A model generated the notes under the pieces. It saw only the letters and a list, made by a program, of their open reading frames with translations, was not told where the DNA came from and did no database searches. DNA of 46,508 nucleotides from the NCBI GenBank assembly GCA_035528755.1, contig DATKXZ010000009.1, positions 1 through 46,508 on the forward strand, written 5' to 3'. Source of the stretch: Desulfobacteria bacterium (GTDB lineage Archaea; Halobacteriota; Syntropharchaeia; Alkanophagales; Methanospirareceae). Position 1 is the first letter of the stretch. Every line of letters begins with the position of its first letter. This document shows, in pieces, positions 13,709-46,316 of this stretch. The translations under genes and the position numbers were made by a program.

Positions 13709-14311
13709 CTATTCCGCGTCATGTTGATACGGTGCCGTCGAGCAAACCTGTTCGATGAAGCGCGTCCAGTCCACTGATCCTGGCTTGTACTTCTCTCTGA
13801 GCGCTTCCCTTCTCTCGCTTCCGCTTTCTTCTTCACTCTCAGCCTCTACCTCAGCATCAATGATCGCACGCACTACAGCAGCTACGTCTTCTACGCTCTT
13901 ACCCGTTGTATCCACTTCATAAACAATGTCGCACAGCTCTACCGCTTCTGCCAGTATAATATCCAGCGTTTCCGCTTCCACGTTCTCCTGTATCTTCTGC
14001 GGTGGAAACCCCTTCTGCTCCAGCCGGTCGGTAAGCACGGACGGCTTTGCACGCAGCACGACTGCAACATCAGGCTTCAGAAGATGAGCTAAGTGACTCT
14101 CGGCTATTATTACCGACAGCCTTTCTTCTTTATGCCGCACGTATTCGTTCAGTTTATCAAGATCCGCGATTAAACACCCCCTCTGGGTATCCACGCCGGT
14201 AAAAAAGCCTTTCTCCTCTATGATGCTATTCAGATCCGTATATTCAAGTCCGCATGCCTTACATACGCTTGTCTTTCCCGTACCGGGCGTTCCGGTGATG
14301 GCGAGAATCAT
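13709..14311 (-). CDS. Adenylate kinase isoenzyme 6 / Fap7-like NTPase
   Basis: 200 aa. It has the P-loop MILAITGTPGTGKTS and an acidic C-terminal extension. Confidence 0.75.
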   Translation of the reverse strand: MILAITGTPGTGKTSVCKACGLEYTDLNSIIEEKGFFTGVDTQRGCLIADLDKLNEYVRHKEERLSVIIAESHLAHLLKPDVAVVLRAKPSVLTDRLEQKGFPPQKIQENVEAETLDIILAEAVELCDIVYEVDTTGKSVEDVAAVVRAIIDAEVEAESEEESGSERREALREKYKPGSVDWTRFIEQVCSTAPYQHDAE

Positions 14312-14648
14312 ATTATGGTTAGAGAAGGGAGCTTTATCAAGAAGATTATTTAATCACAGCAAAGCAAAACAAACGCGAACCCTGTAACGAAAAACGCAAA
14401 GAAAAGCGAAACTGATATAAAGCACGAGCGTCAAAAATATCACACTCATCTCGTTCGGATGAGAGCGCTTACGGCATGGCGCTTTATAAGTGATGTCGAA
14501 AAACCGAAAAAGATAAAAATATATAGAAGACTCTAGTAAAGGATAGAATAGAGAACAAGGGGGAAAAGGGAGATGAAGCTAAAGGCGAAGGTGAAAGGGC
14601 AAGGTAGGAGTGCCACTGGCACTTCGAACCGCACGCTGAACCGAAAAC

Positions 14649-14690
14649 TTTATATACCCCCTTTTCTATTGGAAAAAAATTAGGAGGTGA
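14649..14690 (+). promoter_or_regulatory. Putative TATA box (tttatata, 14649-14656) and Shine-Dalgarno (aggaggtga, 14682-14690) for the surface-protein gene
   Basis: Read directly from the sequence. The SD contains the GTG that the ORF track uses as the start, which favours the ATG at 14702 as the real start. Confidence 0.5.
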
Positions 14691-14701
14691 AAAGTAAAAA
14701 A

Positions 14702-16960
14702 ATGAAAACAAAGATAATAGGCATTACACTGGCAGTAATCATGCTCGCTTCGATCTTCGGCGCTATGGTTCCTTCAACGTTGGCTACTGTAAAGCCTGCT
14801 ACACAAGTAATGACGAGCTATAATCAGACGTTTACGGTGAACTTAGACCATGTAACCCTTTGGTTGGATGGACAAGCTAGTGCCGTAGTCGTCGGTCAAC
14901 TCATAGTATTCAATAAAGATGGCGGTGCTGATGTCGCCCAAGTAACGTTGACGGGTGTCGAAGGTACTGATACCGAAGGAGAAGTTGTATTCTCAGACAA
15001 TACAGGAAAACTCGACACCACAGGACTCGAAAGGGGCCCGTATGATGCTACAGCCGATGGTGCCACTGCAACAAGAATTAACATAGGTACTGCTCGTGGC
15101 GAACTAGACCTTCGAGATACGGCAGACACGAAAACTATATCAAGCGTAACCCAAGGGAGTCCGTTTAGAGTGAAGTTTACACATTCGTTGGATGGCAATG
15201 ATGGCGTAAGTTTGAAAGTTTCAGGTCCTGCAGACTACAAACAAAATCCCGCGGATAAGAAAGTGTTCGAGAAGATAAACGTGAGTTCCATAACTGGAGA
15301 TAATGCAATAATCGATACAGATGGTTGGAGTTTAGGTACCTATACCATATACATTAAAACGGATGAGCAGTATGCACGCGGATTAGCTTTATCGACCAAC
15401 GAAAAGGAGATAACTGTGATGTCAGGTAAGATTGCCATAGCAGCAGATACAACAGAAGTGACAAAAGGATCAAAGGTGAAAATAACCGTGACTGGCGTAG
15501 CAGGTGACACAATAAAAGTTACCGCGGATGAGGGGGAATTCCCGGTCGGTGAAAATGACAATCCGAACACCGCAGTAGCCAATAACTTTGAACACACCAT
15601 AGATTCTGATGGCGTAAGAGCGTATATTGTTAAATTTGTAGATACCGGTTCAAAGAAGGTGAAGGTTGAAGTTATTGCTGGTAACCAGGTAGGTAAGGAT
15701 GCTAGTGTTACTATAACAGTAAAGAAAAAAACGGTAACATTCGATGTTCCATCGACAGCAATAATCGGTGAGGAAGTTACGATAGCTGGTGCTATAAGTT
15801 CAGGGACTGATGTGGATATCGTCATCGAGGATGCAGAGAAGGTATTCGACGACGAACCGGTAGATGAGAACAAGGAGTTCTCAGTGAAGTGGGATACCTC
15901 AAAATTGACAAAGGGCTCTTACAAGATCGAGGTATTCATTACCTCTGACATAGATACCGAAGATCCTGTGAGCTACAAAGGTGAAGATGAAGACGGCTCA
16001 ATAACGATACGGTTAACCACAGGAGAACTTACTGCTGAGCAGGCGAGAAACGTCATTGCAGAAGACGATGACTATACCTTAAAGGGAACGGCAACCGGTG
16101 TAGATAACGTGGATATAGTGCTTATCGGGCCAAAGGGATCGAAGGGTGGAGCCATCGATGACGTGAAAAAGGGGCTTTTAATAACCGATGCATCAGTAAC
16201 TGATGACGAGTTCTCCGAGGATATTGGGATGGACGAAGGTTTAGATACGGGCACGTGGATAGCGTTGGTTCTCACACCTGGACGTGATGCTGTATATGGA
16301 GACTTAACGGATAAAGTCGGGGATCCCCTTGACGCAGGTAAATTAAAAACAGCAGACCTTGACTTCACAGGTAAGGATCAAAGTCAGATTCTGGCAATAA
16401 TCAATGACAGAACGGTTAGTGTAGCAGGAAGTGATGATATAATGGAGCCGTTATCCTTCAAGGTTGAGTCCGGGTACGTGAGATTCGATCCCATCGAGTC
16501 CGTAGGAGTTGGAGATCCTTTGAACATAACGGGCAAGACCAACAGAGAGCCGGATACCACGATAACCATTTCGACCTTTGCGGGACCAACCGACCTGCCT
16601 GCAGCTATTTCAAAAGTCGCGTGGGAAACTAAGGATAACGGTGTATTCTCCGCGACCATCGACACCACTGATGCTAAGGAAGGTACGTATACCTTGCAGG
16701 CAGATGACGGCGATGGGAACACGGATACCGTAACGGTGACGATTGGCGCAGCTGCACCAGCGACACCGGCACCAACCACAGCACCAACCACAGCACCAAC
16801 CGCAGCACCAACCGCACCACCACCAGTAACAACGCCAACACCAACCGCAGCACCAACCGCAGCACCAACAACAACGCCTGAAGAACCAGGCTTTGAAGCG
16901 GTGTTCGCAATTGCAGGCTTGTTAGCTGTAGCTTACCTCGTACTGAGGATAAAGAAGTAA
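14702..16960 (+). CDS. Secreted cell-surface (S-layer-like) protein with Pro/Thr linker and PGF-CTERM archaeosortase sorting signal
   Basis: The signal peptide is MKTKIIGITLAVIMLASIFGAMVPSTLA. The body is long, acidic and beta-rich. The C-terminus APATPAPTTAPTTAPTAAPTAPPPVTTPTPTAAPTAAPTTTPEEPGFEAVFAIAGLLAVAYLVLRIKK shows a PGF motif, a TM helix and a basic tail. Confidence 0.85.
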   Translation: MKTKIIGITLAVIMLASIFGAMVPSTLATVKPATQVMTSYNQTFTVNLDHVTLWLDGQASAVVVGQLIVFNKDGGADVAQVTLTGVEGTDTEGEVVFSDNTGKLDTTGLERGPYDATADGATATRINIGTARGELDLRDTADTKTISSVTQGSPFRVKFTHSLDGNDGVSLKVSGPADYKQNPADKKVFEKINVSSITGDNAIIDTDGWSLGTYTIYIKTDEQYARGLALSTNEKEITVMSGKIAIAADTTEVTKGSKVKITVTGVAGDTIKVTADEGEFPVGENDNPNTAVANNFEHTIDSDGVRAYIVKFVDTGSKKVKVEVIAGNQVGKDASVTITVKKKTVTFDVPSTAIIGEEVTIAGAISSGTDVDIVIEDAEKVFDDEPVDENKEFSVKWDTSKLTKGSYKIEVFITSDIDTEDPVSYKGEDEDGSITIRLTTGELTAEQARNVIAEDDDYTLKGTATGVDNVDIVLIGPKGSKGGAIDDVKKGLLITDASVTDDEFSEDIGMDEGLDTGTWIALVLTPGRDAVYGDLTDKVGDPLDAGKLKTADLDFTGKDQSQILAIINDRTVSVAGSDDIMEPLSFKVESGYVRFDPIESVGVGDPLNITGKTNREPDTTITISTFAGPTDLPAAISKVAWETKDNGVFSATIDTTDAKEGTYTLQADDGDGNTDTVTVTIGAAAPATPAPTTAPTTAPTAAPTAPPPVTTPTPTAAPTAAPTTTPEEPGFEAVFAIAGLLAVAYLVLRIKK
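16751..16878 (+). repeat. Imperfect tandem repeat (gcaccaacc[a/g]ca units) encoding the Pro/Thr/Ala linker
   Basis: Seen directly in accaaccacagcaccaaccacagcaccaaccgcagcaccaaccgcaccaccacca...ccaaccgcagcaccaaccgcagcaccaaca. Confidence 0.8.
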
Positions 16961-29636: not shown

Positions 29637-31673
<2,037 letters not shown>

Positions 31674-31946
31674 GTGACCCAGCTTCTGCATGCTGGACTT
31701 AGTATCCACGAAGGCACCTTTTGATAAAGTCTAAATATTTCAGAAAGTAATCACTGAGGTCGCCTTCTTCGGCGAAGCCTTTCTTCGGTTTGAAACTATC
31801 AATGCTGGGGTTGGGACTTAAAGTAAAAGTTTAAGGTAAGGCTTGACCAAGCTTACTTCTTTGCCGTTGCTTTAGCCCGCTCCTTCAGCCTTCAAACGAG
31901 GTAAGAGGTCATGATAATAATGGACCGCGGGTTATCAATAGATATG

Positions 31947-31953
31947 TTTATAT
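31947..31953 (+). promoter_or_regulatory. Putative TATA box (tttatat) about 28 nt upstream of the ATG at 31978, implying a leaderless transcript
   Basis: Read directly from the sequence. The spacing fits archaeal TATA-to-TSS distances. Confidence 0.35.
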
Positions 31954-31977
31954 GTAACGTCGATACGACATTAAACC

Positions 31978-32463
31978 ATGACAAGTACATGGACAATGAC
32001 AAAGAAGCTCAAGAGAAATTTTGGCATCTCTGAAGAAGTAGCCAATGCCAAGTTAGCCTTAGATTTACTTAGATACACTGCCAAAGATCGTGGATTAGCA
32101 GAGCTGGGATATGAGCCTAATGAACTAAAAGGGCATTTGTCACGCGGAAGGGATCTTCTGATCATCCTTAAAGAAACTCTGGAGATGATTAGTGATAAAA
32201 AAACAGGGGAACTTGACGATGCTGTTGCTGATTTAGTTTATTCTCTTAAGAATTTGCGTGAGACTACAAATAAAATGTTATTAGAAAATCTTGAAGAGGG
32301 CATTGCGGAGTTGGATAGTCTGGGTGAGGATTTTTCTAATATTAATAATATTACCGTAAGTTACGATTTATTTTTGTACCTTAACTCTGCAGTTTCACAA
32401 CTTACATTCGTCACGTCTGACAGACTCAGGAGGAATTTAGGTGCGTGGACTGCACGAACTTAG
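31978..32463 (+). CDS. Hypothetical all-helical protein (161 aa), first gene of a two-gene unit
   Basis: The ORF lies in the AT-rich island. The sequence looks helix-rich by eye (LALDLLRY, LIILKETLEMI, LVYSLKNLRETTNKMLLENLEEGIAELD). It overlaps the next ORF by 23 nt. Confidence 0.6.
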   Translation: MTSTWTMTKKLKRNFGISEEVANAKLALDLLRYTAKDRGLAELGYEPNELKGHLSRGRDLLIILKETLEMISDKKTGELDDAVADLVYSLKNLRETTNKMLLENLEEGIAELDSLGEDFSNINNITVSYDLFLYLNSAVSQLTFVTSDRLRRNLGAWTART

Positions 32464-33571
32464 AAAGGACATTCTCCTCAAGAAGTTCAATCATGTAAAA
32501 GGAGAAATTGGCCAAATCAAATCGCAGGAAAGGCAATTTTTTTCTTCTATTTTAAGTGAGATTGAAAAACGATTTGGAGAGCTGCCAAGATTGGAAAACC
32601 TGTTTTTAAAAACTGGGAATAAAGAATTCTACAAATCGTATTTGTCGAAATTGGATGATATAGAGGTTCTAATAGACCAATATCTAGAAATGAATTGGTA
32701 CTTGTATGAGACATACAAATATCAGCATGAAGATCCAAAACTTAAAAAGGAACTCCACTTAATTGAAAGTTTTGTAGAGAAGATTTTAACTTCTACTGGA
32801 GCTAAAAACGATCTATTGGTGATTCTAGGAAGTGTTCTTTCTGTAATGGATAGTATTGGTATGGAGGAACATGAATTTGGCCGTTTTTTCTTCATTCCCT
32901 TTTTTGAAAGGGAAAATTATCTTTTGTGGCCTCTCTTTCCTCACGAGTTAGGTCACGCTTTTTACGACCAAAAAAGACCAATCTTTGAACATTTCTATGA
33001 AGAGATGAGCAAAGTTGTTAAGAGGGATTTCATAAAAACTCCTGGTGAGGAATCGGAAAGGAAGCGAGAGGAACAACTCAGAAGGTTCAAAACTACGTGG
33101 CATGATTGGATGTTGGAGATATTTGCGGATATTTACGGTGTTCTAACTTTGGGCCCTGCTTTCCTTTTTTCATACTTACATCAAAACCTCTGTGCCAACC
33201 CCTATAGGTTACTCGAAAATGAAATGGGTAGATATGAACATCCCCCACACATAATTAGAACAAAAATTCATTTTAGTGTTCTAAAGGGGATTATTCAAAA
33301 CGAGATTATCATGGAAGTAGTTGAAGATTTGGAGAGAAAGTATGATCTATACGAACAAAATGTTGCAGAACCGGAAAGCACATTATATCAAATGTTAGTC
33401 TGTGATGATTTAATAAATGCAAGCATTAAGGAATGCGAAAATATTCCTCGCATATATGTTGATAAAGAGGAAAAAATAGCTTCTGAGTTAGATAGCCCAA
33501 AATCAACGTTAAATGAGGATCCAATTACAGCTTTGAACGTTATATGGCTCAAGAAACTTACGGAGGCTTGA
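32441..33571 (+). CDS. Hypothetical HExxH...ExxAD zinc-metalloprotease-like protein (376 aa)
   Basis: The GTG start is preceded by aggagg at 32428-32433. HELGH is at ~32942-32956 and EIFAD at ~33116-33130, giving a gluzincin-like arrangement as in M48/ImmA-type peptidases. The N-terminal ~150 aa look helical. Confidence 0.65.
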   Translation: MRGLHELRKDILLKKFNHVKGEIGQIKSQERQFFSSILSEIEKRFGELPRLENLFLKTGNKEFYKSYLSKLDDIEVLIDQYLEMNWYLYETYKYQHEDPKLKKELHLIESFVEKILTSTGAKNDLLVILGSVLSVMDSIGMEEHEFGRFFFIPFFERENYLLWPLFPHELGHAFYDQKRPIFEHFYEEMSKVVKRDFIKTPGEESERKREEQLRRFKTTWHDWMLEIFADIYGVLTLGPAFLFSYLHQNLCANPYRLLENEMGRYEHPPHIIRTKIHFSVLKGIIQNEIIMEVVEDLERKYDLYEQNVAEPESTLYQMLVCDDLINASIKECENIPRIYVDKEEKIASELDSPKSTLNEDPITALNVIWLKKLTEA

Positions 33572-33577
33572 GTCTAC

Positions 33578-35773
33578 CTACCAGGGGATATAATCTAGTG
33601 AAAAGCCTCGTTCAGCAAAAGGGATTACATCTTCTGCTATTTTAATTGTTACTGGCATTTTCATGCCTCTGAGTGGAGAGCCCCAATTAAGTTCAGAAAG
33701 ATAGAGAACATCTCTACAAACTTCTTTTATGTCAAAAGTTCCCTCAAAACTGACAACCTTGGTAAGCAGGGGATTTGCAGTTCCTTGTGTGAGTGAGGGG
33801 GCACCAGTAGTTGCTAAGATTGCATCGCTATTGCTCAATAGGGTAACCGACCCTATCCCACACATTTGTGCAGTTTCATTGTCACCCTCATAAATCCGAA
33901 AGGGGTTGAGTTTTCGGAGTTCAACGCCATAGCAATTAATTACTTCGGGAAGTAACCCTTCTTTTTTCAATCTGGAGATGGCATCGCTTATGCCGTTCTT
34001 CTCACTTTTTCTAATTTCGCCATCCCTGTGAATAACTATAGACTTAATCCTCGCCGATTCGTCTTTGTATTTTCTAATTGAATCAAAAATAGCATCGGAA
34101 ACAATTTCAACCATCGTGTCTTCACTGATGGCTTCCCCCCGTTGTGGAATTGTTTTCCCGATCTCCATGTAAGTTCCGCTTTTATCGATTATGTAGCAGT
34201 TCCCCATCACGTGGGACCTATCACCACCAACATCAAGACCTATATAACAATCGGCTGATAATTGCGTTTGTAGAACCCAGGGTTTAAATCCCATTTTAGC
34301 AGCAAATCCTACTGCAGTTACAAAAATCATATTTTTATACTTTCTCAAAACCTCTCCCCTTGTTTTGAGGGAAGAAGAACGATAACACTGAAGAGGAATG
34401 TTTTTCAAAACCTTCTTAAGATAAAAATAGCTGCCGTCTTCCCAGCGATGCAATGCTAATGCACCGCTTAATTTTTGACTATAGTCAGATAACCAAGTCT
34501 CTATTTCTCCCCGGTCTTCATAGCTCATAATTTGGATCCTTTCTGGTAGAGAATACTTTAGATACTTATTAAATGCGTGTTTAATGTCACCGTAAAATTG
34601 TATGGCATCCGCTCTAGAAACAATTCCCGAGTGAAATAAAACAAATGTGTCCAGAAACCTAGGTATAGAGTATGGACCAAAGTCTTTTAGAAGATTTTTT
34701 TTCTTAAAGTCCCAATTTCTTAGATCCTCATCATTAGCCTCTAAAAAAGCCTTATTTCCAAACTCTAATGTTGGCAGCGTTAAAGTATCGAATTGAAATT
34801 TTCCTTCAGATTTACCATCAAGATCAACGTTTATGTCATACTCGCCCAGTTTAATTGGAGTGAAAAAGTTGAGTAATTGTTTCGTTAATTCCCAACGTCT
34901 TTCAGGGTCAAGGAAAATGTAGTCCTTTTGGATTGAATTAGGGATATCCTCTGTGCCCACAGTAGACTTCAGGAGTGATGAGGCTTCCCGATATGGTTCT
35001 CTTTGTTTGTCGTAATATTTTATTAAAATTACATTCTCATTCGGATTGATTAATTCAGCAATATCCGGTCTTTTTCTAATATCCCTATGATATTCTAAAA
35101 CACTTGTAAGCCTCCCTTTATAAAGGAAAGATTTCTCAGACGCTTTTTTAGAGGATACGGCATGGAATCGGCATCCCCTTTTTGTATCAGGAAAACATTC
35201 GACTAATTTATGTCCTGTTAATTCCGAAGTAAGCTTAGTTATCCCGATTTCGTCCATCTTCTGTTTCAAAGTTTGCGATTCCAAAGTTTTCGTTGTTGGG
35301 TCTAAAGTCAGCATAAAACCTTTGTAGAAATCAATTCGAAAAACTACCCCTTGATAAAGTTCAAACTCGCCTCGTTCTACCGTTGGATTACGCATGTAGT
35401 AAGTGTTGTATTTTCCCCAAAATTTATGCTTGGTTTCAAGCTTATTTCTAATACCAGAATATAAGAGATCTCTAAAGGCTTCTCGATCCGTTTTTTTTGA
35501 GAAATCTAATGTATATTCTTTGAGAAATTTGAGTTCATATACGTTGTCTACGTAAAATGGAGCTTTATCTTCATAATTTCCCAGCAAAAGAACGCAAGGT
35601 TTCCCTTCATAGAAATAATCTGTTGCATATGATCTTAAATAATTGCCAAAAGATCTCGCACAGTACTTAAGTTTCCAAAAAATTTCATTGCTTTGTGGTA
35701 GCCCATCAACACTGTACAAACTACATGAGATCTCTTGTTCGACGCCACTAATATCAAAAGAGTTCAAGAACAT
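33578..35773 (-). CDS. Long prokaryotic Argonaute (N-PAZ-MID-PIWI)
   Basis: The track ORF is 747 aa from a GTG at 35821. The ATG at 35773 (MFLNSFDISG, preceded by ggtgat) gives 731 aa. MID 5'-end pocket candidates are YLKK...PLQC...AAKMG (Y-K-Q-K). PIWI motifs are YIGLDVGGD, QRGEAI, IVIHRDGE and a C-terminal PVTIKIAEDV. Confidence 0.85.
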   Translation of the reverse strand: MFLNSFDISGVEQEISCSLYSVDGLPQSNEIFWKLKYCARSFGNYLRSYATDYFYEGKPCVLLLGNYEDKAPFYVDNVYELKFLKEYTLDFSKKTDREAFRDLLYSGIRNKLETKHKFWGKYNTYYMRNPTVERGEFELYQGVVFRIDFYKGFMLTLDPTTKTLESQTLKQKMDEIGITKLTSELTGHKLVECFPDTKRGCRFHAVSSKKASEKSFLYKGRLTSVLEYHRDIRKRPDIAELINPNENVILIKYYDKQREPYREASSLLKSTVGTEDIPNSIQKDYIFLDPERRWELTKQLLNFFTPIKLGEYDINVDLDGKSEGKFQFDTLTLPTLEFGNKAFLEANDEDLRNWDFKKKNLLKDFGPYSIPRFLDTFVLFHSGIVSRADAIQFYGDIKHAFNKYLKYSLPERIQIMSYEDRGEIETWLSDYSQKLSGALALHRWEDGSYFYLKKVLKNIPLQCYRSSSLKTRGEVLRKYKNMIFVTAVGFAAKMGFKPWVLQTQLSADCYIGLDVGGDRSHVMGNCYIIDKSGTYMEIGKTIPQRGEAISEDTMVEIVSDAIFDSIRKYKDESARIKSIVIHRDGEIRKSEKNGISDAISRLKKEGLLPEVINCYGVELRKLNPFRIYEGDNETAQMCGIGSVTLLSNSDAILATTGAPSLTQGTANPLLTKVVSFEGTFDIKEVCRDVLYLSELNWGSPLRGMKMPVTIKIAEDVIPFAERGFSLDYIPW

Positions 35774-35798
35774 ATCATCACCAGAGTTTATTCTTACT

Positions 35799-36368
35799 TT
35801 ACAGCACCTCTTTTTCTTCACATTCTATATTACACCATTCACAACTAGCACCAACAAATGCAGATGGCGGTGAATCACTCATTAAAATATTGGTGTATTC
35901 TCCAATTTCTGATGGCAGATCGTCATATATGTCACTTAAACTGTAGCTAATATTTGCATCTTCATAGTGTATCACCCCTCTCAGTGGGTTCTCTTCGAAT
36001 AGATCTAATTTATCAACCATATACAAATATATCATCATTTGTACATGATGACTGGCACTTTGCCTACCACCTTTGCAATCGTAAATTACAACTTCGTCAT
36101 CTGCAATGTGTAATAAATCTACTCTACCGACTAATGTCCCTCCAGAAACATCCAATTTTACATATTCTTCCTTTTTAATTCTTCCGCCTCTTTTTTCCAG
36201 TCCATTACTCAGATCCTTCAGCATTTTAGTGTGGTTGATCTTCCACTGAACCAAACTCTTACTTAGTTGTGCTGTAGCTTCTTTGTGCCTCATTTTATAC
36301 CAAATCTTAAAGAGGCAAGCCTCATCTCCTGAAATCAGCCTACTCAAATCTGATACGGCAACGTTCAT
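35799..36368 (-). CDS. Cas4-like / RecB-family PD-(D/E)xK nuclease with 4-Cys Fe-S motif
   Basis: 189 aa. GRVDLL (motif II D), VVIYDCKGG (D-x-K) and HHVQMMIYLY (QxxxY) are present. There is one N-terminal Cys (DEACLF) and the C-terminal CEWCNIEC. It ends 25 nt before the pAgo ATG on the same strand. Confidence 0.75.
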   Translation of the reverse strand: MNVAVSDLSRLISGDEACLFKIWYKMRHKEATAQLSKSLVQWKINHTKMLKDLSNGLEKRGGRIKKEEYVKLDVSGGTLVGRVDLLHIADDEVVIYDCKGGRQSASHHVQMMIYLYMVDKLDLFEENPLRGVIHYEDANISYSLSDIYDDLPSEIGEYTNILMSDSPPSAFVGASCEWCNIECEEKEVL

Positions 36369-36418
36369 TTTATCGTCAAAAAGAGATAAGGGAAATACAT
36401 TAATATTAAGTTAAGCCA

Positions 36419-36676
36419 TCAATGATTTTTATAGGGTAAATTACTCCGTAAACACGGGCAGACTTTTATAAGGGGCTCCCTCTGTTTTTGAGAATAATTG
36501 GATGTGGGGCAATTTATCTCTAAATCCTCACGGATTTCCCGATTAAAGTTTTTATCGGTTGGATGTGCATGTAAAATAACCACACTTTCAAAAAACCCTA
36601 ACGCCAGTTGCAATGAGTCAAATCCCGAGGAAACGGTAATTATTCTCCTCTTTTTATTTCCCAATACCGAATTCAA
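36419..36676 (-). pseudogene. Start-less or degenerate reading frame upstream of the nuclease-pAgo pair
   Basis: The track shows 85 aa from a TTG. By my translation the frame stays open upstream to ~36740 (LQEYLNYQKPLFLPSNGTLLQKPDSVQEALNSV...) with no ATG. VVILHAHPTDKNF...EINCPTS faintly resembles the C-terminus of small metallophosphoesterases (GHTH...NPGS), but key residues differ. Confidence 0.3.
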
Positions 36677-36783
36677 CGCTTCTTGTACGCTATCAGGCTT
36701 CTGTAGAAGCGTACCATTCGAGGGAAGAAATAGTGGCTTCTGATAATTTAAATATTCCTGGAGTTAGTTAGCAATAGTAAGAG

Positions 36784-38514
36784 ATGCACAACCTCGATAT
36801 AGCACGAATTTTTAACGAGATTGCGGATATTCTGGAAGTGAAAGGCGAGAACGCCTTTAAGATACGCGCGTACCGAAAGGCCGCACTGACGATCGAAACA
36901 CTCATCCAGGACTTAACGGTGATCGCCGAGCGCGGCGGCGTGAAAGAGCTGAAGCAGATCCCGGGTATTGGCGAAGGTATTGCGAAGAAGATCGTCGAAA
37001 TCGCAGAGACCGGCGATTGCAAGAAGCACCGCGAATTGAAACAGGAAATGCCGTCGGAGTTGCTCGAGCTCTTAGCCATACCGCGTGTCGGCCCCAAGAC
37101 GATCGCGAAGGTGCATCAGGAGCTTGGTATAACGAATATAGAGGAATTGGAGCAGGCTGCGAAATCGCATCAGTTAGCTGGCATTCCGGGATTCGGCGCC
37201 AAGGTGGAGGAGAACATTGTGAAGGGTATAGCGCAATACCGGGGTTATCAAGGCCGTGCATTGCTGTCCGTCGCGCTTCCCTACGCCGAATCGATCGTTA
37301 ACGAACTGAAGAAGTTGGATGCCGTGGAGCAGCTAATAATAGCAGGCAGTTTGCGACGAATGCGTGAGACGATCGGCGACATCGACATACTGGTCGTCTC
37401 GAAACGGCCTAACGAGGTGATGGATGCATTTACAAGCCTTGACGGTGTGGAGGACGTGATCGCAAAGGGCACAACGAAATCCTCGATTATCATCAACGGT
37501 ATAAACGCGGACGTGCGTGTGGTGGAGGCGGTTTCCTTCGGCGCGGCGGCACATTATTTCACCGGTTCCAAGCACCATAACGTACGAATACGGGAGTTAG
37601 GCGTGAAGAAGGGGCTGAAGATAAACGAATACGGCGTTTTCCGCGGTGAGGAACGGATTGGCGGTGAGCATGAGGAGGACGTGTTCGCGAGTGTTGGGCT
37701 CTCGTACATTCCTCCTGAGCTGCGGGAAGATCGAGGAGAGGTAGAAGCAGCGAAGGAGAACAGAATACCGATGTTGATCGAGCTCAGCGATCTCAAGGGC
37801 GACTTGCACGTGCATACCAACTGGAGTGACGGGCGGGACAGTATAGAGGGGATGGCGGAAGCTGCGCTCGCGTTAGGCTACGAGTATATCGCCGTGGCTG
37901 ACCATTCCCCTGCAGTGGGCGTCGCAGGCGGCTTGAACGAGGAGAAAATACCGAAGCGGCTGGAAGAAATAGAACGGGTGAACACGCGATTTGAAGAAGA
38001 AGGAGTTAAATTCAGGGTGCTCAATGCAGTCGAGGTGGATATAAAGTCAGATTTCTCCATGGATTTCTCTGATGAGATATTAAAAGCTCTGGACGTAGTC
38101 GTGGGTGCTGTCCACTCAAAATTTTCGCAAGACCGCCCGGCGATGACGAAGCGGATCGTCACCGCAATGGAGAACCCGCACGTAGATATCATTGCGCACC
38201 CTACCGGTAGGCTGTTAGGCAAACGGGACCCGTACCAAGTGGATATGGAGCAGCTTATGGCGGCTGCAAAGGACACGGGGACCACGCTGGAACTGAACTC
38301 GTTCCCGACACGGCTTGACCTCAACGATCTCCACTGCAAGATGGCGAAAGAATACGGCGTTTTAGTCGCTATCTCCACGGATGCGCATGCGACCACGCAG
38401 ATGCGGGATGTGCGGATGTATGGCGTAGCAACCGCTCGGCGCGGCTGGCTCGAACCAAAGGACGTGCTCAATACGAGAAGCTTGAAAGAACTAATAAAGT
38501 GTGTGAAGCATTAA
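36784..38514 (+). CDS. polX: Family X DNA polymerase with C-terminal PHP domain (PolX)
   Basis: 576 aa. The N-terminus IARIFNEIADILEVKGENAFKIRAYRKAA has HhH motifs. GSLRRMRETIGDIDILV carries the catalytic aspartates. PHP motifs are DLHVHTNWSDG and DAH. Confidence 0.92.
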   Translation: MHNLDIARIFNEIADILEVKGENAFKIRAYRKAALTIETLIQDLTVIAERGGVKELKQIPGIGEGIAKKIVEIAETGDCKKHRELKQEMPSELLELLAIPRVGPKTIAKVHQELGITNIEELEQAAKSHQLAGIPGFGAKVEENIVKGIAQYRGYQGRALLSVALPYAESIVNELKKLDAVEQLIIAGSLRRMRETIGDIDILVVSKRPNEVMDAFTSLDGVEDVIAKGTTKSSIIINGINADVRVVEAVSFGAAAHYFTGSKHHNVRIRELGVKKGLKINEYGVFRGEERIGGEHEEDVFASVGLSYIPPELREDRGEVEAAKENRIPMLIELSDLKGDLHVHTNWSDGRDSIEGMAEAALALGYEYIAVADHSPAVGVAGGLNEEKIPKRLEEIERVNTRFEEEGVKFRVLNAVEVDIKSDFSMDFSDEILKALDVVVGAVHSKFSQDRPAMTKRIVTAMENPHVDIIAHPTGRLLGKRDPYQVDMEQLMAAAKDTGTTLELNSFPTRLDLNDLHCKMAKEYGVLVAISTDAHATTQMRDVRMYGVATARRGWLEPKDVLNTRSLKELIKCVKH

Positions 38515-44515: not shown

Positions 44516-45037
44516 TTAAATTGCCGAATCAAACGGCGGACTGTACTTCACCACGCCGCGTACGTTCTTCAACGCACCGGGAACAAGCTCAAGCACCATA
44601 AACGCTTCGTCAGGCACTTCAAATGGCGCCTTTATGCCACAGTCGCGCGCAGGCCTGAACCCGAACCGGGGATAGTACTCAGGATGCCCAACCACGATCA
44701 CGATCGAATAGCCGAGCTTTTTACATGCTGCCAACCCGTGCTGAACTAACAGAGTACCAATACCGCTGTTCTGGCATTCGGTGAGAACGGCCATGGGGGC
44801 AAGTGCTAACGCCTCTACTGAAGTTTCAGGCGATTCGATTTTTACTGGACTAAAAAGGATATGGCCGACTGTTTGAGTATTATCGTCTAAGGCCACAAGG
44901 GATAATTCGGGGATGAAATAGTCTGAAGTACGAATAGCCGCGATTAAGTTCGCTTCCTCCTCGCCCTGAAAAGCGCGGGTGGTTACGTTTTCGATGCTTG
45001 CGATATCTTCCGGTTTTTCTGGTCTGATATGGATCAT
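44516..45037 (-). CDS. GNAT-family N-acetyltransferase
   Basis: The track ORF starts at 45076. M14 (MIHIRPEKPEDIASI, ATG at 45037) is the likely start and coincides with the end of the direct repeat. QNSGIGTLLV is the acetyl-CoA binding motif. Confidence 0.85.
   Translation of the reverse strand: MIHIRPEKPEDIASIENVTTRAFQGEEEANLIAAIRTSDYFIPELSLVALDDNTQTVGHILFSPVKIESPETSVEALALAPMAVLTECQNSGIGTLLVQHGLAACKKLGYSIVIVVGHPEYYPRFGFRPARDCGIKAPFEVPDEAFMVLELVPGALKNVRGVVKYSPPFDSAI
44889..45037. repeat. Direct repeat copy 1 (5' end of the intact GNAT gene)
   Basis: 44910-45037 equals 45602-45729 (128 nt) with a single mismatch (ggtCtgat versus ggtTtgat), counted by eye. The adjacent 21 nt (44889-44909 versus 45581-45601) still encode the same PELSLVA peptide but differ at 7 synonymous positions. 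Confidence 0.9.
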
Positions 45038-45072
45038 TGTTACAAAAAAGAGGGCTAATACTACGCTAATTT

Positions 45073-45329
45073 TCACCGAGCATATACCTTACTCCGCCTA
45101 TCGAGCTTTAGTATAACAACCCTCTTCTGATCCTCGTTTATTTCATACAACATGCGGTACGCACCCAGCCTGATTCTGTAAAGATTGGTCTCTCCACGGA
45201 TTTTTCGATAGGGGTGAGAAAAAGGGTTGCTTTTCATATCCTCTATAACAGTTCTCAAGTTCTCTCTGTGAGCCCTCGGCAGTTCTCCTACGACTTCGCA
45301 GCCTTTCGGGCGAATACAATGTCATACAT
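45073..45329 (-). pseudogene. relE: RelE/ParE-family toxin gene interrupted by a frameshift after codon ~12
   Basis: My own translation: the ATG at 45329 gives MYDIVFARKAAKS* (stop at 45288-45290). The -1 frame continues VVGELPRAHRENLRTVIEDMKSNPFSHPYRKIRGETNLYRIRLGAYRMLYEINEDQKRVVILKLDRRSKVYAR*, which the track reports as 45073..45258 from a TTG. Joined, the two parts give a typical ~85-aa RelE. Confidence 0.75.
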
Positions 45330-45528
45330 TATCTTCGTCCCCGAAGACCTCGTCGAAATGAAGATATTCTCCTGCTTCTATCTCTTTCTGGAGCGCCTCG
45401 ACCTCATTCTGCTCGTCCTTGTCCAACTCCTCAAAGCCGAGAAAGTTATCGATTTTGGCATTAAGCTTCTGTAATAGACTCTCAATACGATCGATTTTCT
45501 CCATCAGGGCCTCAGACATTTTTTTCAC
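45322..45528 (-). CDS. Putative antitoxin (acidic coiled-coil, 68 aa) paired with the relE-like gene
   Basis: Its stop (45322-45324) overlaps the toxin ATG region (aatgtatga), the typical TA gene arrangement. I do not recognise the family by eye. Confidence 0.6.
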   Translation of the reverse strand: MKKMSEALMEKIDRIESLLQKLNAKIDNFLGFEELDKDEQNEVEALQKEIEAGEYLHFDEVFGDEDNV

Positions 45529-45580
45529 TTAAAGTAACTACTACTCAACAGTATTTAAAATTACCCGAGATCTTTTCTGA

Positions 45581-45729
45581 GCGGCTACTAAAGATAGCTC
45601 AGGGATGAAATAGTCTGAAGTACGAATAGCCGCGATTAAGTTCGCTTCCTCCTCGCCCTGAAAAGCGCGGGTGGTTACGTTTTCGATGCTTGCGATATCT
45701 TCCGGTTTTTCTGGTTTGATATGGATCAT
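45581..45729 (-). pseudogene. Truncated 5' fragment of a GNAT gene (direct repeat copy 2)
   Basis: It encodes MIHIKPEKPEDIASIENVTTRAFQGEEEANLIAAIRTSDYFIPELSLVA, then runs into unrelated sequence (AQKRSRVILNTVE*). The track ORF 45541..45789 is this fragment with an artificial N-terminal extension. Confidence 0.85.
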
Positions 45730-45758
45730 ACATCTTTCATAATCTGCCGTAAAACTTC

Positions 45759-46316
45759 TTAATCTGCCTCTATTATTTGAATATCCCAAATGAAGCCCTC
45801 AGTGTTATTCTTTCCAGTATAATAGTTAACTATCCCATGATATTTTCTCTTATTTTTTGGATTGTTAATTTCCCAATAATCTAGCATTATCTGCATAAGG
45901 AATCCATCACTTTCAGAAATATTGTTCATGATTTCCGACGCGGGTATAGAAATTTTTTCGTTCTTTTGTGTAGGAAAGACAAAATATGTTATATTTATAT
46001 CTTCAGCTAGATCTTTTCTCCCCAATTCTGTAAAAGGCGTCTGATAAAAAATTATATCTCCTCTTTTAAATTCTATTGCTGCTGGAAGTTTCCCACTATT
46101 CTCTAGAACTACCCCTATAGATGAAGTGCCACTATCAACGAGAATGTCTGAAACAAAAACAAAAGGTCGATTATTTGCTTCAAAGTCATTTTTCATTGTT
46201 GAAGCCATTTTATGTGTAGAGACAGCATAATACATAGTAACACCTACTAAAGCAAGCACTAGGATGACTTGGATTTGTTTATCATTATTACCAATCCAAT
46301 TCCAAACTTTCCTCAT
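45759..46316 (-). CDS. Hypothetical N-terminally membrane-anchored protein in AT-rich DNA
   Basis: 185-aa ORF with one TM segment (IQVILVLALVGVTMYYAV) followed by a beta-rich domain. I do not recognise a family. Confidence 0.5.
   Translation of the reverse strand: MRKVWNWIGNNDKQIQVILVLALVGVTMYYAVSTHKMASTMKNDFEANNRPFVFVSDILVDSGTSSIGVVLENSGKLPAAIEFKRGDIIFYQTPFTELGRKDLAEDINITYFVFPTQKNEKISIPASEIMNNISESDGFLMQIMLDYWEINNPKNKRKYHGIVNYYTGKNNTEGFIWDIQIIEAD

What the first reader, a model, noticed from the sequence alone, without database searches (positions are those of the whole stretch)
33578..36368. Long pAgo preceded by a Cas4-like Fe-S nuclease: candidate nucleic-acid-guided defence operon
Two same-strand genes lie 25 nt apart inside an AT-rich island.
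- The upstream 189-aa protein has the full RecB/Cas4 motif set: D in GRVDLL, D-C-K, QxxxY, and a 1+3 cysteine arrangement (...EACLF... and CEWCNIEC).
- The downstream 731-aa protein has a Y-K-Q-K type MID pocket. Its PIWI domain carries GLDVGGD, RGE and HRDGE, so it is a long pAgo that may be catalytically competent.

Computational surveys of pAgo neighbourhoods report association with nucleases, including Cas4-like ones. To my knowledge no pAgo plus Cas4-like pair has a worked-out mechanism. A TATA-like ttaatatta ~35 nt upstream of the nuclease ATG suggests the pair has its own promoter.
Basis: partly seen in the sequence, partly recalled or inferred. Interest (0 to 1): 0.85.

Follow-up and report, generated by a model that had tools for sequence, protein, structure and literature searches.

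The report
Archaeal four-gene Argonaute defence cassette

Summary
On the minus strand, a 189-aa Cas4-family nuclease (35799-36368) lies 25 nt upstream of a 731-aa long pAgo (33578-35773), inside a 37% GC island with 51-53% GC flanks.

- **pAgo.** It has a YKQK MID pocket and a D514-E547-D584-E714 tetrad. Its AF2 model (pLDDT 92) superposes full-length on PliAgo.
- **Outdated claim.** "No pAgo plus Cas4 pair has a worked-out mechanism" no longer holds, because APACE1 was published in 2025. This locus is not an APACE1 member.
- **Four genes, not two.** A convergent operon (31978-33571) encodes a 161-aa helical protein and a 376-aa protein with invariant HExxH...ExxAD...HPP motifs.
- **Conservation of the convergent pair.**
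  - The HExxH protein accompanies every relative of this pAgo whose downstream flank I could read, down to 24% identity.
  - Those relatives span Bathyarchaeia, Nitrosopumilus and haloarchaeal plasmids carrying slicer-dead pAgos.
  - They also include the operons of Runella RslAgo (a characterised DNA-guided RNA cleaver) and of a cyanobacterial plasmid.
  - A small protein gene always precedes the HExxH gene. Its homology to the 161-aa protein holds for the archaeal loci only.
- **Conservation of the 189-aa Cas4.** It is restricted to the window's subclade and to one unrelated pAgo locus. Sister clades carry about 300-aa Cas4/Csa1-like nucleases instead.

Verdict: a new variant of a known kind, namely an archaeal counterpart of D-R-type pAgo operons. 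Its protease-like accessory pair is, as far as I could find, undescribed.

The parts
31750..36783 (.). Low-GC island (37% GC against 51-53% in the flanks) that contains exactly the four cassette genes. It lies between an NAD-dependent DNA ligase gene (29640-31673) and a PolX gene (36784-38514).
   Evidence: Composition profiles. Each of the four genes has GC 0.357-0.385. Flank identities come from NCBIfam. No flanking repeats or tRNA were found.
36401..36409 (-). TATA-like box TTAATATTA, 32 nt upstream of the Cas4-like ATG. Probable archaeal promoter of the Cas4-like/pAgo operon.
   Evidence: Sequence read. A TTTATATA-type box sits at the same position in L001, L002, L008, L014 and L007, where the surrounding intergenic DNA has diverged.
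35799..36368 (-). Cas4-family PD-(D/E)xK nuclease, 189 aa. Motif residues: C18, D84, D97-x-K99, Q110xxxY114, C176xxC179xxxC183 (a putative 4Fe-4S site).
   Evidence: Pfam PDDEXK_1 5e-9 and Cas_Cas4 6.8e-6, both above gathering score. PADLOC Cas4 models 1e-9. TIGR00372 1.4e-8, below its cut-off. Motifs are invariant in 7 homologs, except C183 (6 of 7). The only PDB sequence hit is Cas4 4r5q.
35778..35782 (-). GGTGA ribosome-binding-like motif, 4 nt before the pAgo ATG. It lies inside the 25-nt Cas4-pAgo spacer.
   Evidence: Sequence read.
33578..35773 (-). Long pAgo, 731 aa, with full N/L1/PAZ/L2/MID/PIWI architecture. MID pocket: Y449 K453 Q462 K493 (codons 34295-34429). PIWI tetrad: D514 E547 D584 E714 (codons 33632-34234).
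   Evidence: Pfam Piwi. PADLOC pAgo models, up to 1.5e-70 full length. PDB sequence hits: VbAgo 7e-21, PliAgo 3e-19. AF2 pLDDT 92.3, pTM 0.91. Foldseek: PliAgo E 8e-45, TM 0.77 over about 790 columns. Motif columns.
32441..33571 (+). HExxH metallopeptidase-like protein, 376 aa. It has an N-terminal region of about 110 aa that matches coiled-coil proteins. Invariant residues: H168-E169-x-x-H172, W223, E226-x-x-A-D230, G238, H267-P268, R273 (codons about 32942-33260). It is convergent with the pAgo, and the two stop codons are 6 nt apart.
   Evidence: 12-sequence alignment A10. The A10 HMM hits the gene next to the pAgo in every relative locus with readable flank. Only sub-threshold Pfam hits to Peptidase_M78 (0.015) and M48 (0.026). 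No PDB sequence relative.
31978..32463 (+). Small acidic helical protein, 161 aa, with no known domain. It is the first gene of the convergent operon, and its stop overlaps the GTG start of the HExxH gene by 23 nt.
   Evidence: ORF and overlap. Homologs occupy the same position in the archaeal loci. The A8 HMM hits held-out L026, L029, L031 (7.7e-8) and the haloarchaeal proteins. No Pfam, PADLOC or NCBIfam hit.
31947..31954 (+). TATA-like box TTTATATG, 23 nt upstream of the ATG of the 161-aa gene. Probable promoter of the convergent operon, which would give a leaderless or near-leaderless transcript.
   Evidence: Sequence read. Conservation in homologous loci was not tested.

Best explanation
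**What it is.** The island is a horizontally acquired, four-gene Argonaute defence cassette in the chromosome of a Halobacteriota-type archaeon. It is the archaeal counterpart of the bacterial operons that encode DNA-guided, RNA-cleaving (D-R) pAgos such as RslAgo, PliAgo and VbAgo.

**Shown**
- The pAgo is a complete long pAgo with a canonical 5'-phosphate-binding YKQK pocket and a carboxylate tetrad D-E-D-E.
- It is co-transcribed (same strand, 25-nt spacer, shared conserved TATA box) with a minimal Cas4-family Fe-S nuclease.
- It is convergent with a translationally coupled pair: a 161-aa helical protein followed by a 376-aa HExxH/ExxAD zinc-peptidase-like protein.
- The HExxH protein co-inherits with this pAgo family across archaea and bacteria.

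**Inferred mechanism**
1. The Cas4-like enzyme threads and cuts single-stranded DNA ends of invading or replicating DNA. This generates or trims 5'-phosphorylated small DNA guides, as ACE1 does for APACE1 pAgos.
2. The pAgo loads these guides through the YKQK/Mg2+ pocket. It slices complementary invader nucleic acid.
3. RNA transcripts are the more likely target, given the closest characterised relatives. DNA is not excluded.
4. The small-protein/HExxH pair acts as a regulatory or output module coupled to the pAgo, for example a protease and its substrate or inhibitor.
   - The HExxH protein, always preceded by a small protein gene, is retained even where the pAgo slicer site is dead and where no nuclease is present.
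   - It therefore provides a function the pAgo cannot replace.
For: **Identity of the two reported proteins:**

**Operon structure:**

**One transferred unit:** all four genes have uniform low GC.

**Cas4-pAgo adjacency:** seen in all 13 other contigs of this clade, with gaps of 18-39 nt.

**A 58%-identical Cas4-like gene beside an unrelated pAgo:** it sits next to an 880-aa pAgo in L007. That pAgo has a degenerate tetrad, GRTN.

**The HExxH protein, preceded by a small protein gene, beside the pAgo in every lineage sampled**

| pAgo lineage | Identity to window pAgo |
|---|---|
| P0011 | 45% |
| P0013 | 31% |
| Bathyarchaeia, 4 MAGs (one with the gene in fragments) | 28-33% |
| Nitrosopumilus | 37% over the PIWI part |
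| Slicer-dead P0025 | 27% |
| Haloarchaeal plasmids | about 25% |

**Same gene set in bacterial D-R-type operons**
- Runella pRUNSL03: HTH, PD-(D/E)xK nuclease, RslAgo, 125-aa protein, 378-aa HExxH protein.
- An Aphanizomenonaceae plasmid: nuclease, pAgo, 145-aa protein, 381-aa HExxH protein.
- L032: Csa1-like nuclease, pAgo, HExxH protein, with no small-protein gene called between them.

**Closest characterised pAgos**
- The nearest in both sequence and fold are VbAgo and PliAgo. Both cleave RNA with DNA guides (PMC9360449; PMC13219720).
- K711, three residues before E714, matches the lysine conserved in D-R pAgos, where TtAgo has histidine.

**Precedent for guide processing by a Cas4-family partner:** PMC12094033.
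Against: - No biochemical or expression data exist for this locus.
- Identity to characterised D-R pAgos is only about 18-25%. Guide and target chemistry cannot be read from the sequence.
- A glutamate at the fourth tetrad position is not among the described X residues (D, H, K). I found no paper reporting DEDE. Slicing is therefore plausible but unproven.
- The 189-aa Cas4-like protein is not demonstrably orthologous to the about 300-aa nucleases of the D-R operons (hhalign E 0.003, probability 10%), nor to ACE1 (no hit).
- Its AF2 model failed (pLDDT 39). Its assignment rests on profiles and motifs only.
- The HExxH protein has no significant match to any curated peptidase family or solved structure. 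Its fold could not be predicted with an alignment.
- The bacterial 125- and 145-aa proteins are only positional analogues of the 161-aa protein (no A8 HMM hit).
- The HExxH pair also occurs without any pAgo, next to a dCTP deaminase in Bradyrhizobium. It is therefore not pAgo-specific.
Confidence: 0.55

Rival explanations
1. APACE-like DNA interference. The pAgo is a DNA-guided DNA endonuclease. The Cas4-like enzyme is a functional equivalent of ACE1 that forms a heterodimer with the pAgo and trims its siDNA guides. The two convergent genes are merely regulators or passengers.
For: - The D-DxK plus 1+3 Cys signature is the same as in ACE1 and ACE2.
- The gene order nuclease-then-pAgo matches.
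- Most long-A pAgos with YKQK-type pockets target DNA (PMC9360449 introduction).
- Foldseek also gives strong matches to the DNA-targeting CbAgo and TtAgo (TM 0.69-0.72).
Against: - The APACE1 pAgo CtAgo (9IAD) is a remote hit (E 0.0036), against 7e-21 for VbAgo.
- The Cas4 profile does not detect ACE1 chains 9IAB or 9IAC, even at E 10.
- ACE1 averages 278 aa and is reported only from cyanobacteria. ACE2 averages 313 aa. This protein is 189 aa and archaeal.
- The convergent pair is far more conserved with this pAgo family than the nuclease is. Passenger status is therefore unlikely.
Confidence: 0.25
2. Sensor-effector (abortive infection or signalling) system. Guide-directed target binding by the pAgo, rather than slicing, is the key event. 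It activates the HExxH metalloprotease, which cleaves the small helical protein or host targets to trigger a downstream response. This would be analogous to CRISPR-linked proteases. The Cas4-like nuclease is an optional guide-supply add-on.
For: - The HExxH protein, preceded by a small protein gene, is retained in lineages whose pAgo tetrad is degenerate: SRNR, STNK and SDNA in L031 and the haloarchaeal plasmids.
- Inactive pAgos in other clades rely on co-encoded effectors (PMC6299218; PMC12094033 discussion).
- The HExxH, ExxAD and HPP..R residues are invariant across all 12 aligned members. The same motifs are present in the Runella, Aphanizomenonaceae, Bradyrhizobium and Halosimplex members.
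- The two genes are translationally coupled.
- The same pair sits next to another defence effector, a dCTP deaminase, in Bradyrhizobium.
Against: - Peptidase activity is not established. The best Pfam hits are below threshold.
- There is no evidence of interaction with the pAgo.
- In the window the pAgo keeps an apparently functional active site. Direct slicing could therefore suffice.
- The convergent orientation is also compatible with a simple transcriptional regulator or anti-toxin role.
Confidence: 0.15
3. Coincidental neighbourhood. The Cas4-like gene is a stand-alone DNA-repair or CRISPR-adaptation Cas4 that happens to lie beside a pAgo in a defence island.
For: - Solo Cas4 genes are common.
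- TIGR00372 and the PADLOC Cas4 models are the best profile matches.
- pAgo relatives below 50% identity lack this gene.
Against: - The gene is always immediately upstream and co-oriented with the pAgo, 18-39 nt away, in 13 other contigs spanning 68-85% pAgo identity.
- It shares the island's GC and a conserved promoter position.
- There is no CRISPR array in the 46.5-kb window and no cas gene within the island or immediately flanking it.
- A 58%-identical homolog is again next to a different pAgo.
- Cas4-family nucleases recur upstream of sister pAgo clades.
Confidence: 0.05

Closest known systems
D-R pAgo operons: PliAgo/RslAgo and PnyAgo/HpeAgo groups (Lisitskaya et al. 2022, PMC9360449), and VbAgo (PMC10448046, PMC13219720)
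   Same: - These are the closest characterised pAgos by sequence (VbAgo 7e-21, PliAgo 3e-19) and by fold (PliAgo TM 0.77).
[quoted passage not shown]
- The Runella RslAgo operon and a cyanobacterial relative also encode a small protein plus a homolog of the 376-aa HExxH protein (A10 HMM 4e-27 and 3.5e-23).
- The MID pocket is YKQK, like VbAgo's Y484/K488/Q497.
- The lysine at position -3 from the last tetrad residue is shared.
   Different: - The host is archaeal.
- The pAgo is shorter (731 aa against 780-800 aa).
- The fourth tetrad residue is Glu, not Asp.
- There is no HTH or sigma-factor gene in the island.
- The nuclease is 189 aa, not about 300 aa, and is only marginally related (hhalign E 0.003).
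- The small/HExxH pair is inverted into a convergent operon.
- The PliAgo-type RHSY pocket is absent.
- The paper's operon scheme names only the nuclease and the regulator.
APACE1 and APACE2 systems (Bobadilla Ugarte et al. 2025, PMC12094033)
   Same: A long-A pAgo is co-encoded with an upstream Cas4-family enzyme that carries D-DxK and 1+3 Cys (Fe4S4). This gives an experimentally supported model for what such a nuclease does: an ssDNA endonuclease that trims guides in a heterodimer with the pAgo.
   Different: - The pAgo clade is different (CtAgo 9IAD E 0.0036).
- ACE1 structures are not detected by the Cas4 profile.
- ACE1 averages 278 aa and is reported only from cyanobacteria. ACE2 averages 313 aa and is bacterial. 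This protein is 189 aa and archaeal.
- No HExxH or small-protein partner is named among APACE1's components in the sections I read.
CRISPR-associated Cas4 (Pfam PF01930, TIGR00372; for example PDB 4r5q)
   Same: Best profile and PDB matches, similar size (about 180-220 aa), RecB motifs, and four cysteines.
   Different: It scores below the TIGR00372 equivalog cut-off (34.7 against 65). No CRISPR array is in the window, and no cas1/cas2 gene is within or beside the island. Its constant partner is a pAgo.
Gluzincin metallopeptidases with HExxH...ExxA(D/N) motifs: M48 (HtpX/Ste24-like) and M78 (ImmA/IrrE anti-repressor proteases)
   Same: The 376-aa protein has invariant HExxH and a downstream E-x-x-A-D. 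In M48 and M78 enzymes this motif supplies the third zinc ligand (my recollection of those families). Sub-threshold Pfam hits fall on exactly these regions. Like ImmA/ImmR, it is encoded right after a small partner gene.
   Different: No significant profile or structure match. The HExxH-to-Glu spacing is 54 residues. The protein has an N-terminal coiled-coil-like extension and an invariant HPP..R motif. The partner protein has no detectable HTH.

Membership tests
Long pAgo, catalytically active type (long-A) | Full N-L1-PAZ-L2-MID-PIWI architecture | tested here: met
   The AF2 model has pLDDT 92.3 and pTM 0.91. It aligns over about 770-800 columns with PliAgo, CbAgo and TtAgo at TM 0.69-0.78. 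Pfam detects only Piwi.
Long pAgo, catalytically active type (long-A) | DEDX catalytic tetrad (X = D, H or K) | tested here: inconclusive
   D514, E547 and D584 are present. The fourth position is E714, aligned to PliAgo D762 and VbAgo D756. In 38 family members the tetrad is DEDE in 12 and DEDD in 8. Glu is not a described X.
Long pAgo, catalytically active type (long-A) | (Y/H/R)KQK 5'-phosphate pocket in MID | tested here: met
   Y449, K453, Q462 and K493 are invariant in the ten closest members. They align to VbAgo Y484/K488/Q497.
Long pAgo, catalytically active type (long-A) | Guide-dependent target cleavage | not testable with these tools
   Requires biochemistry.
D-R pAgo operon (PMC9360449) | pAgo belongs to or is nearest to the PliAgo/PnyAgo clades | tested here: inconclusive
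   These are the nearest characterised relatives, but only at 18-25% identity. About 44 representative clusters are closer to the window pAgo than these (E below 1e-30). No formal tree with labelled references was built.
D-R pAgo operon (PMC9360449) | Upstream Cas4-related PD-(D/E)xK nuclease gene | tested here: met
   It is of a different size class, and its homology to the Runella-type nuclease is marginal.
D-R pAgo operon (PMC9360449) | Associated HTH regulator or sigma-70 factor gene | tested here: not met
   The island holds only four genes, and none has an HTH or sigma profile hit.
D-R pAgo operon (PMC9360449) | Small protein plus HExxH protein genes beside the pAgo (seen here in the Runella and Aphanizomenonaceae operons) | tested here: met
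   The A10 HMM scores 4e-27 (Runella) and 3.5e-23 (Aphanizomenonaceae). Orientation is inverted in the window. Homology of the small proteins is not shown for the bacterial loci.
D-R pAgo operon (PMC9360449) | DNA guide, RNA target specificity | not testable with these tools
   Requires cleavage assays.
APACE1 (PMC12094033) | pAgo in the ACE1-associated cyanobacterial long-A subclade | tested here: not met
   CtAgo 9IAD scores E 0.0036, about 17 orders of magnitude weaker than VbAgo.
APACE1 (PMC12094033) | Nuclease in the ACE1 clade (about 278 aa, cyanobacterial) | tested here: not met
   This protein is 189 aa. The Cas4 profile A1 finds no ACE1 chain (9IAB, 9IAC) at E up to 10.
APACE1 (PMC12094033) | D-DxK triad plus 1+3 cysteines | tested here: met
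APACE1 (PMC12094033) | pAgo-nuclease heterodimer and guide trimming | not testable with these tools
   No co-folding tool was available, and the monomer model failed.
CRISPR-associated Cas4 | Profile membership | tested here: inconclusive
   Pfam Cas_Cas4 is above gathering (26.7 against 22.7). TIGR00372 is below its equivalog cut-off (34.7 against 65).
CRISPR-associated Cas4 | Location in a CRISPR-cas locus | tested here: not met
   No repeat array in 46.5 kb. Neighbours are the pAgo and PolX.
Zinc metallopeptidase (gluzincin, M48/M78-like), for the 376-aa protein | HExxH plus a downstream Glu ligand motif | tested here: met
   H168, E169, H172, E226 and D230 are invariant in 12 aligned sequences. 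The same motifs are present in further members checked by eye or regex.
Zinc metallopeptidase (gluzincin, M48/M78-like), for the 376-aa protein | Significant match to a curated peptidase profile or solved peptidase structure | tested here: not met
   Best hits are M78 at E 0.015 and M48 at E 0.026, both below cut-off. No PDB hit.
Zinc metallopeptidase (gluzincin, M48/M78-like), for the 376-aa protein | Peptidase fold | not tested

The most novel reading that the evidence does not exclude
The small helical protein and the HExxH/ExxAD protein form an undescribed protease-based output or control module. This module is an ancestral, obligatory partner of a whole pAgo superfamily: archaeal chromosomes and plasmids, plus bacterial D-R pAgos such as RslAgo. 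Under this reading, pAgo target recognition is transduced into proteolysis, or proteolysis licenses the pAgo. That would be a pAgo analogue of CRISPR-associated protease signalling. It would also explain why slicer-dead members persist, and what D-R pAgos do in vivo.
Probability: 0.2. Interest if true: 0.85.

Novelty: new variant of a known kind. Interest (0 to 1): 0.6.

Why it matters
- **Biological role of D-R pAgos.** These enzymes are being developed as RNA-targeting tools, but their biological role and guide source are unknown. This locus ties an archaeal pAgo family to them through shared accessory genes.
- **An overlooked conserved partner.** The most conserved partner is a protease-like protein preceded by a small protein gene, not the nuclease. 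I found neither in the pAgo literature I could search.
- **A tractable test system.** The same trio occurs on plasmids of cultured haloarchaea, including Halobacterium salinarum, Halorientalis and Halosimplex, with slicer-dead pAgos. The question "what does the accessory pair do?" could be tested genetically there.
- **Modularity and the tetrad.** The locus adds a third, independently assembled pAgo/Cas4-family combination, which bears on how modular guide-supply nucleases are. It also adds a DEDE tetrad variant whose activity is worth testing.

Tried and rejected
- **AF2 model of the Cas4-like protein.** With the 5 permitted homologs it failed (pLDDT 39). No fold search was done for it.
- **Structure prediction of the 376-aa protein.** Both jobs were then spent.
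- **Word-indexed homolog searches.** They returned only very close relatives: 4 clusters for the pAgo and 6 for the Cas4-like protein. The third search, with a 38-sequence profile, added nothing useful.
- **Metagenome DNA-pattern scan with the Cas4 alignment.** It gave one already-known contig.
- **First genome scan.** It failed because the alignment was too diverse. It was repeated with 10 sequences.
- **Mobile-element borders.** No direct or inverted repeats or tRNA mark the island ends. An integration mechanism cannot be proposed.
- **Sigma-70 promoter scan.** It is uninformative for an archaeon and gave fewer hits than shuffled sequence.
- **Small-protein homology.** hhalign between the window's 161-aa family and the Bathyarchaeia 150-160-aa family was not significant. 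Homology is argued instead from synteny, collinear motifs and held-out hits of a joint HMM. It is not established for the bacterial 125- and 145-aa proteins.
- **The 387-aa HExxH protein of L007.** It shares only the motif with the 376-aa family. I do not count it as a homolog.
- **PADLOC model PprPIWI.** This was the best PADLOC hit. I could not trace it to any paper, so I did not use it for classification.
- **Rejected idea: the Cas4-like gene is a CRISPR adaptation gene.** There is no array in the window and no cas gene within or beside the island.
- **Plasmid and phage searches.** No tblastn hit for the Cas4-like protein in plasmids or for the HExxH protein in phages.

Full report
**1. Observation**

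ORF listing shows two co-oriented minus-strand genes at the stated coordinates.
- The first is a 189-aa ORF at 35799-36368.
- The second is a pAgo ORF ending at 33578. Its ATG at 35773 gives 731 aa.
- A GTG at 35821 would give 747 aa but would overlap the upstream stop. Homolog N-termini do not support it.
- The spacer is exactly 25 nt and contains GGTGA 4 nt before the ATG.

The genes lie in a sharply bounded low-GC island.
- The island spans 31750-36783 at GC 0.374. The flanks are at 0.528 and 0.509.
- It sits between an NAD-dependent DNA ligase gene and a PolX gene.
- The host chromosome is archaeal: archaeal-type uS2, archaeal methionine adenosyltransferase, and a PGF-CTERM S-layer protein.

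**2. The two reported proteins**

*The 189-aa protein*
- It passes the Pfam gathering scores for PDDEXK_1 and Cas_Cas4.
- It matches several PADLOC Cas4 models at about 1e-9.
- It matches TIGR00372 at 1.4e-8, which is below the equivalog cut-off.
- In seven homologs the following are invariant: C18, D84, D97-x-K99, Q110xxxY114, C176xxC179. C183 is conserved in six of the seven.
- The only PDB sequence relative is Cas4 4r5q.
- An AF2 model with five sequences failed (pLDDT 39).

*The 731-aa protein*
- It matches Pfam Piwi and, full length, PADLOC pAgo models up to 1.5e-70.
- An exhaustive HMMER scan of 1.84 billion representatives found 563 relatives, 44 of them below 1e-30.
- With a 38-sequence alignment, AF2 gave pLDDT 92.3 and pTM 0.91.
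- Foldseek aligned about 790 columns to PliAgo (E 8e-45, TM 0.77). It then aligned to CbAgo, KmAgo, TtAgo and eukaryotic Agos. This is a complete long pAgo.
- MID residues Y449/K453/Q462/K493 are invariant among the closest members. They align with VbAgo's 5'-phosphate ligands.
- The tetrad is D514/E547/D584/E714. E714 aligns with PliAgo D762 and VbAgo D756, and K711 aligns with the D-R-specific lysine.
- Family tetrads are DEDE (12), DEDD (8) and many degenerate forms.
- I found no paper describing a DEDE Argonaute.

**3. The locus is larger than reported**

The island has two further plus-strand genes, convergent with the pAgo.
- One is 31978-32463 (161 aa). The other is 32441-33571 (376 aa, GTG start).
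- They overlap each other by 23 nt.
- The stop of the 376-aa gene lies 6 nt from the pAgo stop.
- All four genes share GC 0.36-0.385.
- All close relatives of the pAgo (68-85% identity, metagenome contigs L001-L011) show the same layout: Cas4-like, then pAgo, then the convergent 376-388-aa and 159-161-aa genes.

**4. Which partner is conserved?**

The following pAgo relatives keep the convergent about 340-400-aa and about 142-160-aa genes but lack the Cas4-like gene.

| Locus | Identity to window pAgo | Upstream of pAgo |
|---|---|---|
| P0011 (L026-28) | 45% | AAA_14/DUF4143 ATPase |
| P0013 (L029) | 31% | contig edge |
| Bathyarchaeia MAGs L017-L020 | 28-33% | ABC-type ATPase (L017); PLD nuclease (L020) |
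| Nitrosopumilus MAG L021 | 37% over PIWI | contig edge |
| Slicer-dead P0025 (L031, tetrad SRNR) | 27% | unannotated 186-aa ORF at contig edge |

An HMM of the 376-aa family hits the neighbouring gene in every one of these loci.

The tblastn search against PLSDB extended the picture.
- Plasmids of Halorientalis, Halobacterium salinarum, Haloplanus and Halosimplex carry the trio.
- Natrinema carries it too, with an IS5 insertion between the genes.
- The haloarchaeal tetrads I extracted (Halorientalis, Halobacterium, Natrinema) are degenerate.

The same gene set also appears in bacteria.
- Runella slithyformis pRUNSL03 carries: HTH, PD-(D/E)xK nuclease (311 aa), pAgo (801 aa), a 125-aa protein, and a 378-aa protein with HELAH...EFFCD...HPP (A10 HMM 4e-27).
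- That pAgo is from the organism of RslAgo, shown in vitro to be a DNA-guided RNA endonuclease (PMC9360449).
- An Aphanizomenonaceae plasmid has nuclease (304 aa), pAgo (794 aa; DEDD, HKQV), a 145-aa protein, and a 381-aa HExxH homolog (3.5e-23).
- L032 has a Csa1/Cas4-like nuclease (301 aa), pAgo, and a co-directional HExxH homolog. L033 has a Csa1-like nuclease and pAgo.

The window's 189-aa Cas4 clade was found in only two settings.
- The first is the window's own subclade.
- The second is L007, at 58% identity. There it is convergent to an operon of wHTH, a 387-aa HExxH-motif protein, an 880-aa PAZ-containing pAgo with tetrad GRTN, and a 309-aa protein.

**5. The 376-aa family**

- Twelve aligned members share invariant H168, E169, H172, W223, E226, D230, G238, H267, P268, R273 and Y304.
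- HExxH followed by ExxAD is the zinc-site signature of M48-type gluzincins and resembles ExxAN of M78/ImmA. This is my recollection of those families.
- The only Pfam hits are sub-threshold M78 and M48 matches on these segments.
- No PDB sequence relative exists. The N-terminal 110 residues match coiled-coil proteins only.
- The protein is soluble and acidic.
- A family member (HMM 7.8e-16) also occurs without a pAgo on a Bradyrhizobium plasmid. The order there is MerR, a 145-aa protein, the HExxH protein, and dCTP deaminase. The pair is therefore portable.

**6. The 161-aa family**

- It has no domain hits.
- Across the archaeal loci the proteins are collinear: MTxxW, S..AN, GxxLL.
- A joint HMM recovers held-out members, including L031 at 7.7e-8 and the haloarchaeal proteins at 1e-8 to 1e-11.
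- hhalign between the two subfamilies is not significant.
- The bacterial 125- and 145-aa proteins are not detected.

**7. Promoters**

- The TTAATATTA box sits 32 nt upstream of the Cas4-like ATG. It aligns with TTTATATA-type boxes at the same position in five homologous loci.
- A TTTATATG box lies 23 nt upstream of the 161-aa ATG.
- This indicates two convergent transcription units with almost no room for termination between them.

**8. Comparison with the literature**

- Cas4-like nucleases next to pAgos were noted in 2009 and 2018.
- APACE1 (2025) established the following:
  - ACE1 is an end-requiring ssDNA endonuclease.
  - It binds the pAgo as a heterodimer.
  - It trims siDNA guides.
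  - It boosts plasmid interference.
- The window's pAgo is remote from the APACE1 pAgo CtAgo (9IAD, E 0.0036).
- Its nuclease does not detect ACE1 structures.
- D-R pAgo operons were described as nuclease plus pAgo plus HTH or sigma factor.
- I found no in vivo study of them, and no mention of a protease-like partner.

**9. Interpretation**

The best-supported reading is a four-gene pAgo defence cassette homologous in gene content to D-R pAgo operons.
- The Cas4-family enzyme is an exchangeable guide-supply or processing nuclease.
- The pAgo is the guide-directed slicer. The RNA-versus-DNA target question is unresolved.
- The small/HExxH pair is a conserved control or output module of unknown biochemistry.
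- Retention of the HExxH protein, preceded by a small protein gene, with slicer-dead pAgos argues that it is functionally central. Its occurrence beside a dCTP deaminase argues that it is modular.

**10. Verdict**

The novelty claimed for the pAgo/Cas4 pairing is overstated.
- The locus is a new variant of a known kind. It has a genuinely under-described accessory module that deserves experimental attention.

Noticed in passing
L007:10001-15720 (JGI 3300029812, 21-kb contig): A 58%-identical homolog of the window's Cas4-like protein lies convergent to an operon. The operon order is: wHTH (112 aa), a 387-aa protein with a HELCH motif, an 880-aa PAZ+PIWI pAgo with degenerate tetrad GRTN, and a 309-aa CxxC-containing protein. 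This is a second, unrelated pAgo context for the same Cas4 clade.
   Followed up: partly
L007:1036-9351: Upstream on the same contig are a UvrD-like helicase, a PDDEXK-like protein, TGT, GTP cyclohydrolase I, PTPS (QueD-like), QueC and a radical-SAM (QueE-like) gene. This set resembles 7-deazaguanine DNA-modification (Dpd-like) clusters, which would make the region a defence island.
   Followed up: no
L039:4637-7568 (Bradyrhizobium quebecense plasmid pBq66S1MBa): A member of the HExxH family (462 aa; HEVGH, ELLAD, HPP; HMM 7.8e-16) follows a 145-aa protein and a MerR regulator. It precedes a dCTP deaminase. No pAgo is annotated within the 12.3-kb stretch examined. The small-protein/HExxH pair may therefore be a portable module attached to different defence effectors.
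   Followed up: partly
L038:2011-7196 and L040:6047-10936; also L034:10450-11391 (haloarchaeal plasmids): In Natrinema and Halosimplex the slicer-dead pAgo follows a conserved string: TFIIB-family factor, a 316-aa MarR-type regulator, and a 289-aa unknown protein. Halorientalis also has a TFB gene nearby. This may parallel the sigma-70 factor or HTH gene of bacterial D-R pAgo operons, or it may be chance on TFB-rich plasmids.
   Followed up: no
L020:5740-7851, L017:4766-7751, L026:1871-6732: The gene upstream of the pAgo varies between relatives. L020 has a 703-aa PLD-family nuclease. L017 has an ABC/AAA ATPase plus a terminase-like ATPase. L026 has an AAA_14/DUF4143 ATPase next to two AbiE modules. 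This looks like accessory-gene swapping within defence islands.
   Followed up: partly
window:33571-33578, and the equivalent junctions in L002, L017, L026 and L034: The pAgo and the HExxH gene are convergent. Their 3' ends are 6 nt apart in the window and overlap by 12-36 nt in relatives, which leaves no room for terminators. Convergent read-through would produce complementary RNAs next to an Argonaute gene.
   Followed up: no
window:29640-31673 and 36784-38514: The island is inserted between a bacterial-type NAD-dependent DNA ligase LigA (909 bits) and a PolX polymerase/PHP exonuclease. These are two DNA-repair genes in an archaeal chromosome.
   Followed up: no
window:16769-16869: A 12-nt-period tandem repeat (8.7 copies, GCACCAACCGCA) lies inside the 757-aa PGF-CTERM S-layer glycoprotein gene (14687-16960). 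It probably encodes a Thr/Pro-rich linker.
   Followed up: no
window:1-2000, 14000-16000 and 45000-46000: Other stretches have GC 0.40-0.45, below the window mean of 0.48. These include a 475-aa ORF at 161-1588. They may be further acquired segments.
   Followed up: no
L002:4732-5409: In one close relative the cassette is flanked by a gene with a type I/IIG restriction-enzyme N-terminal domain (HSDR_N, MmeI_N; weak hits). That context differs from the window's, which fits a mobile cassette.
   Followed up: no
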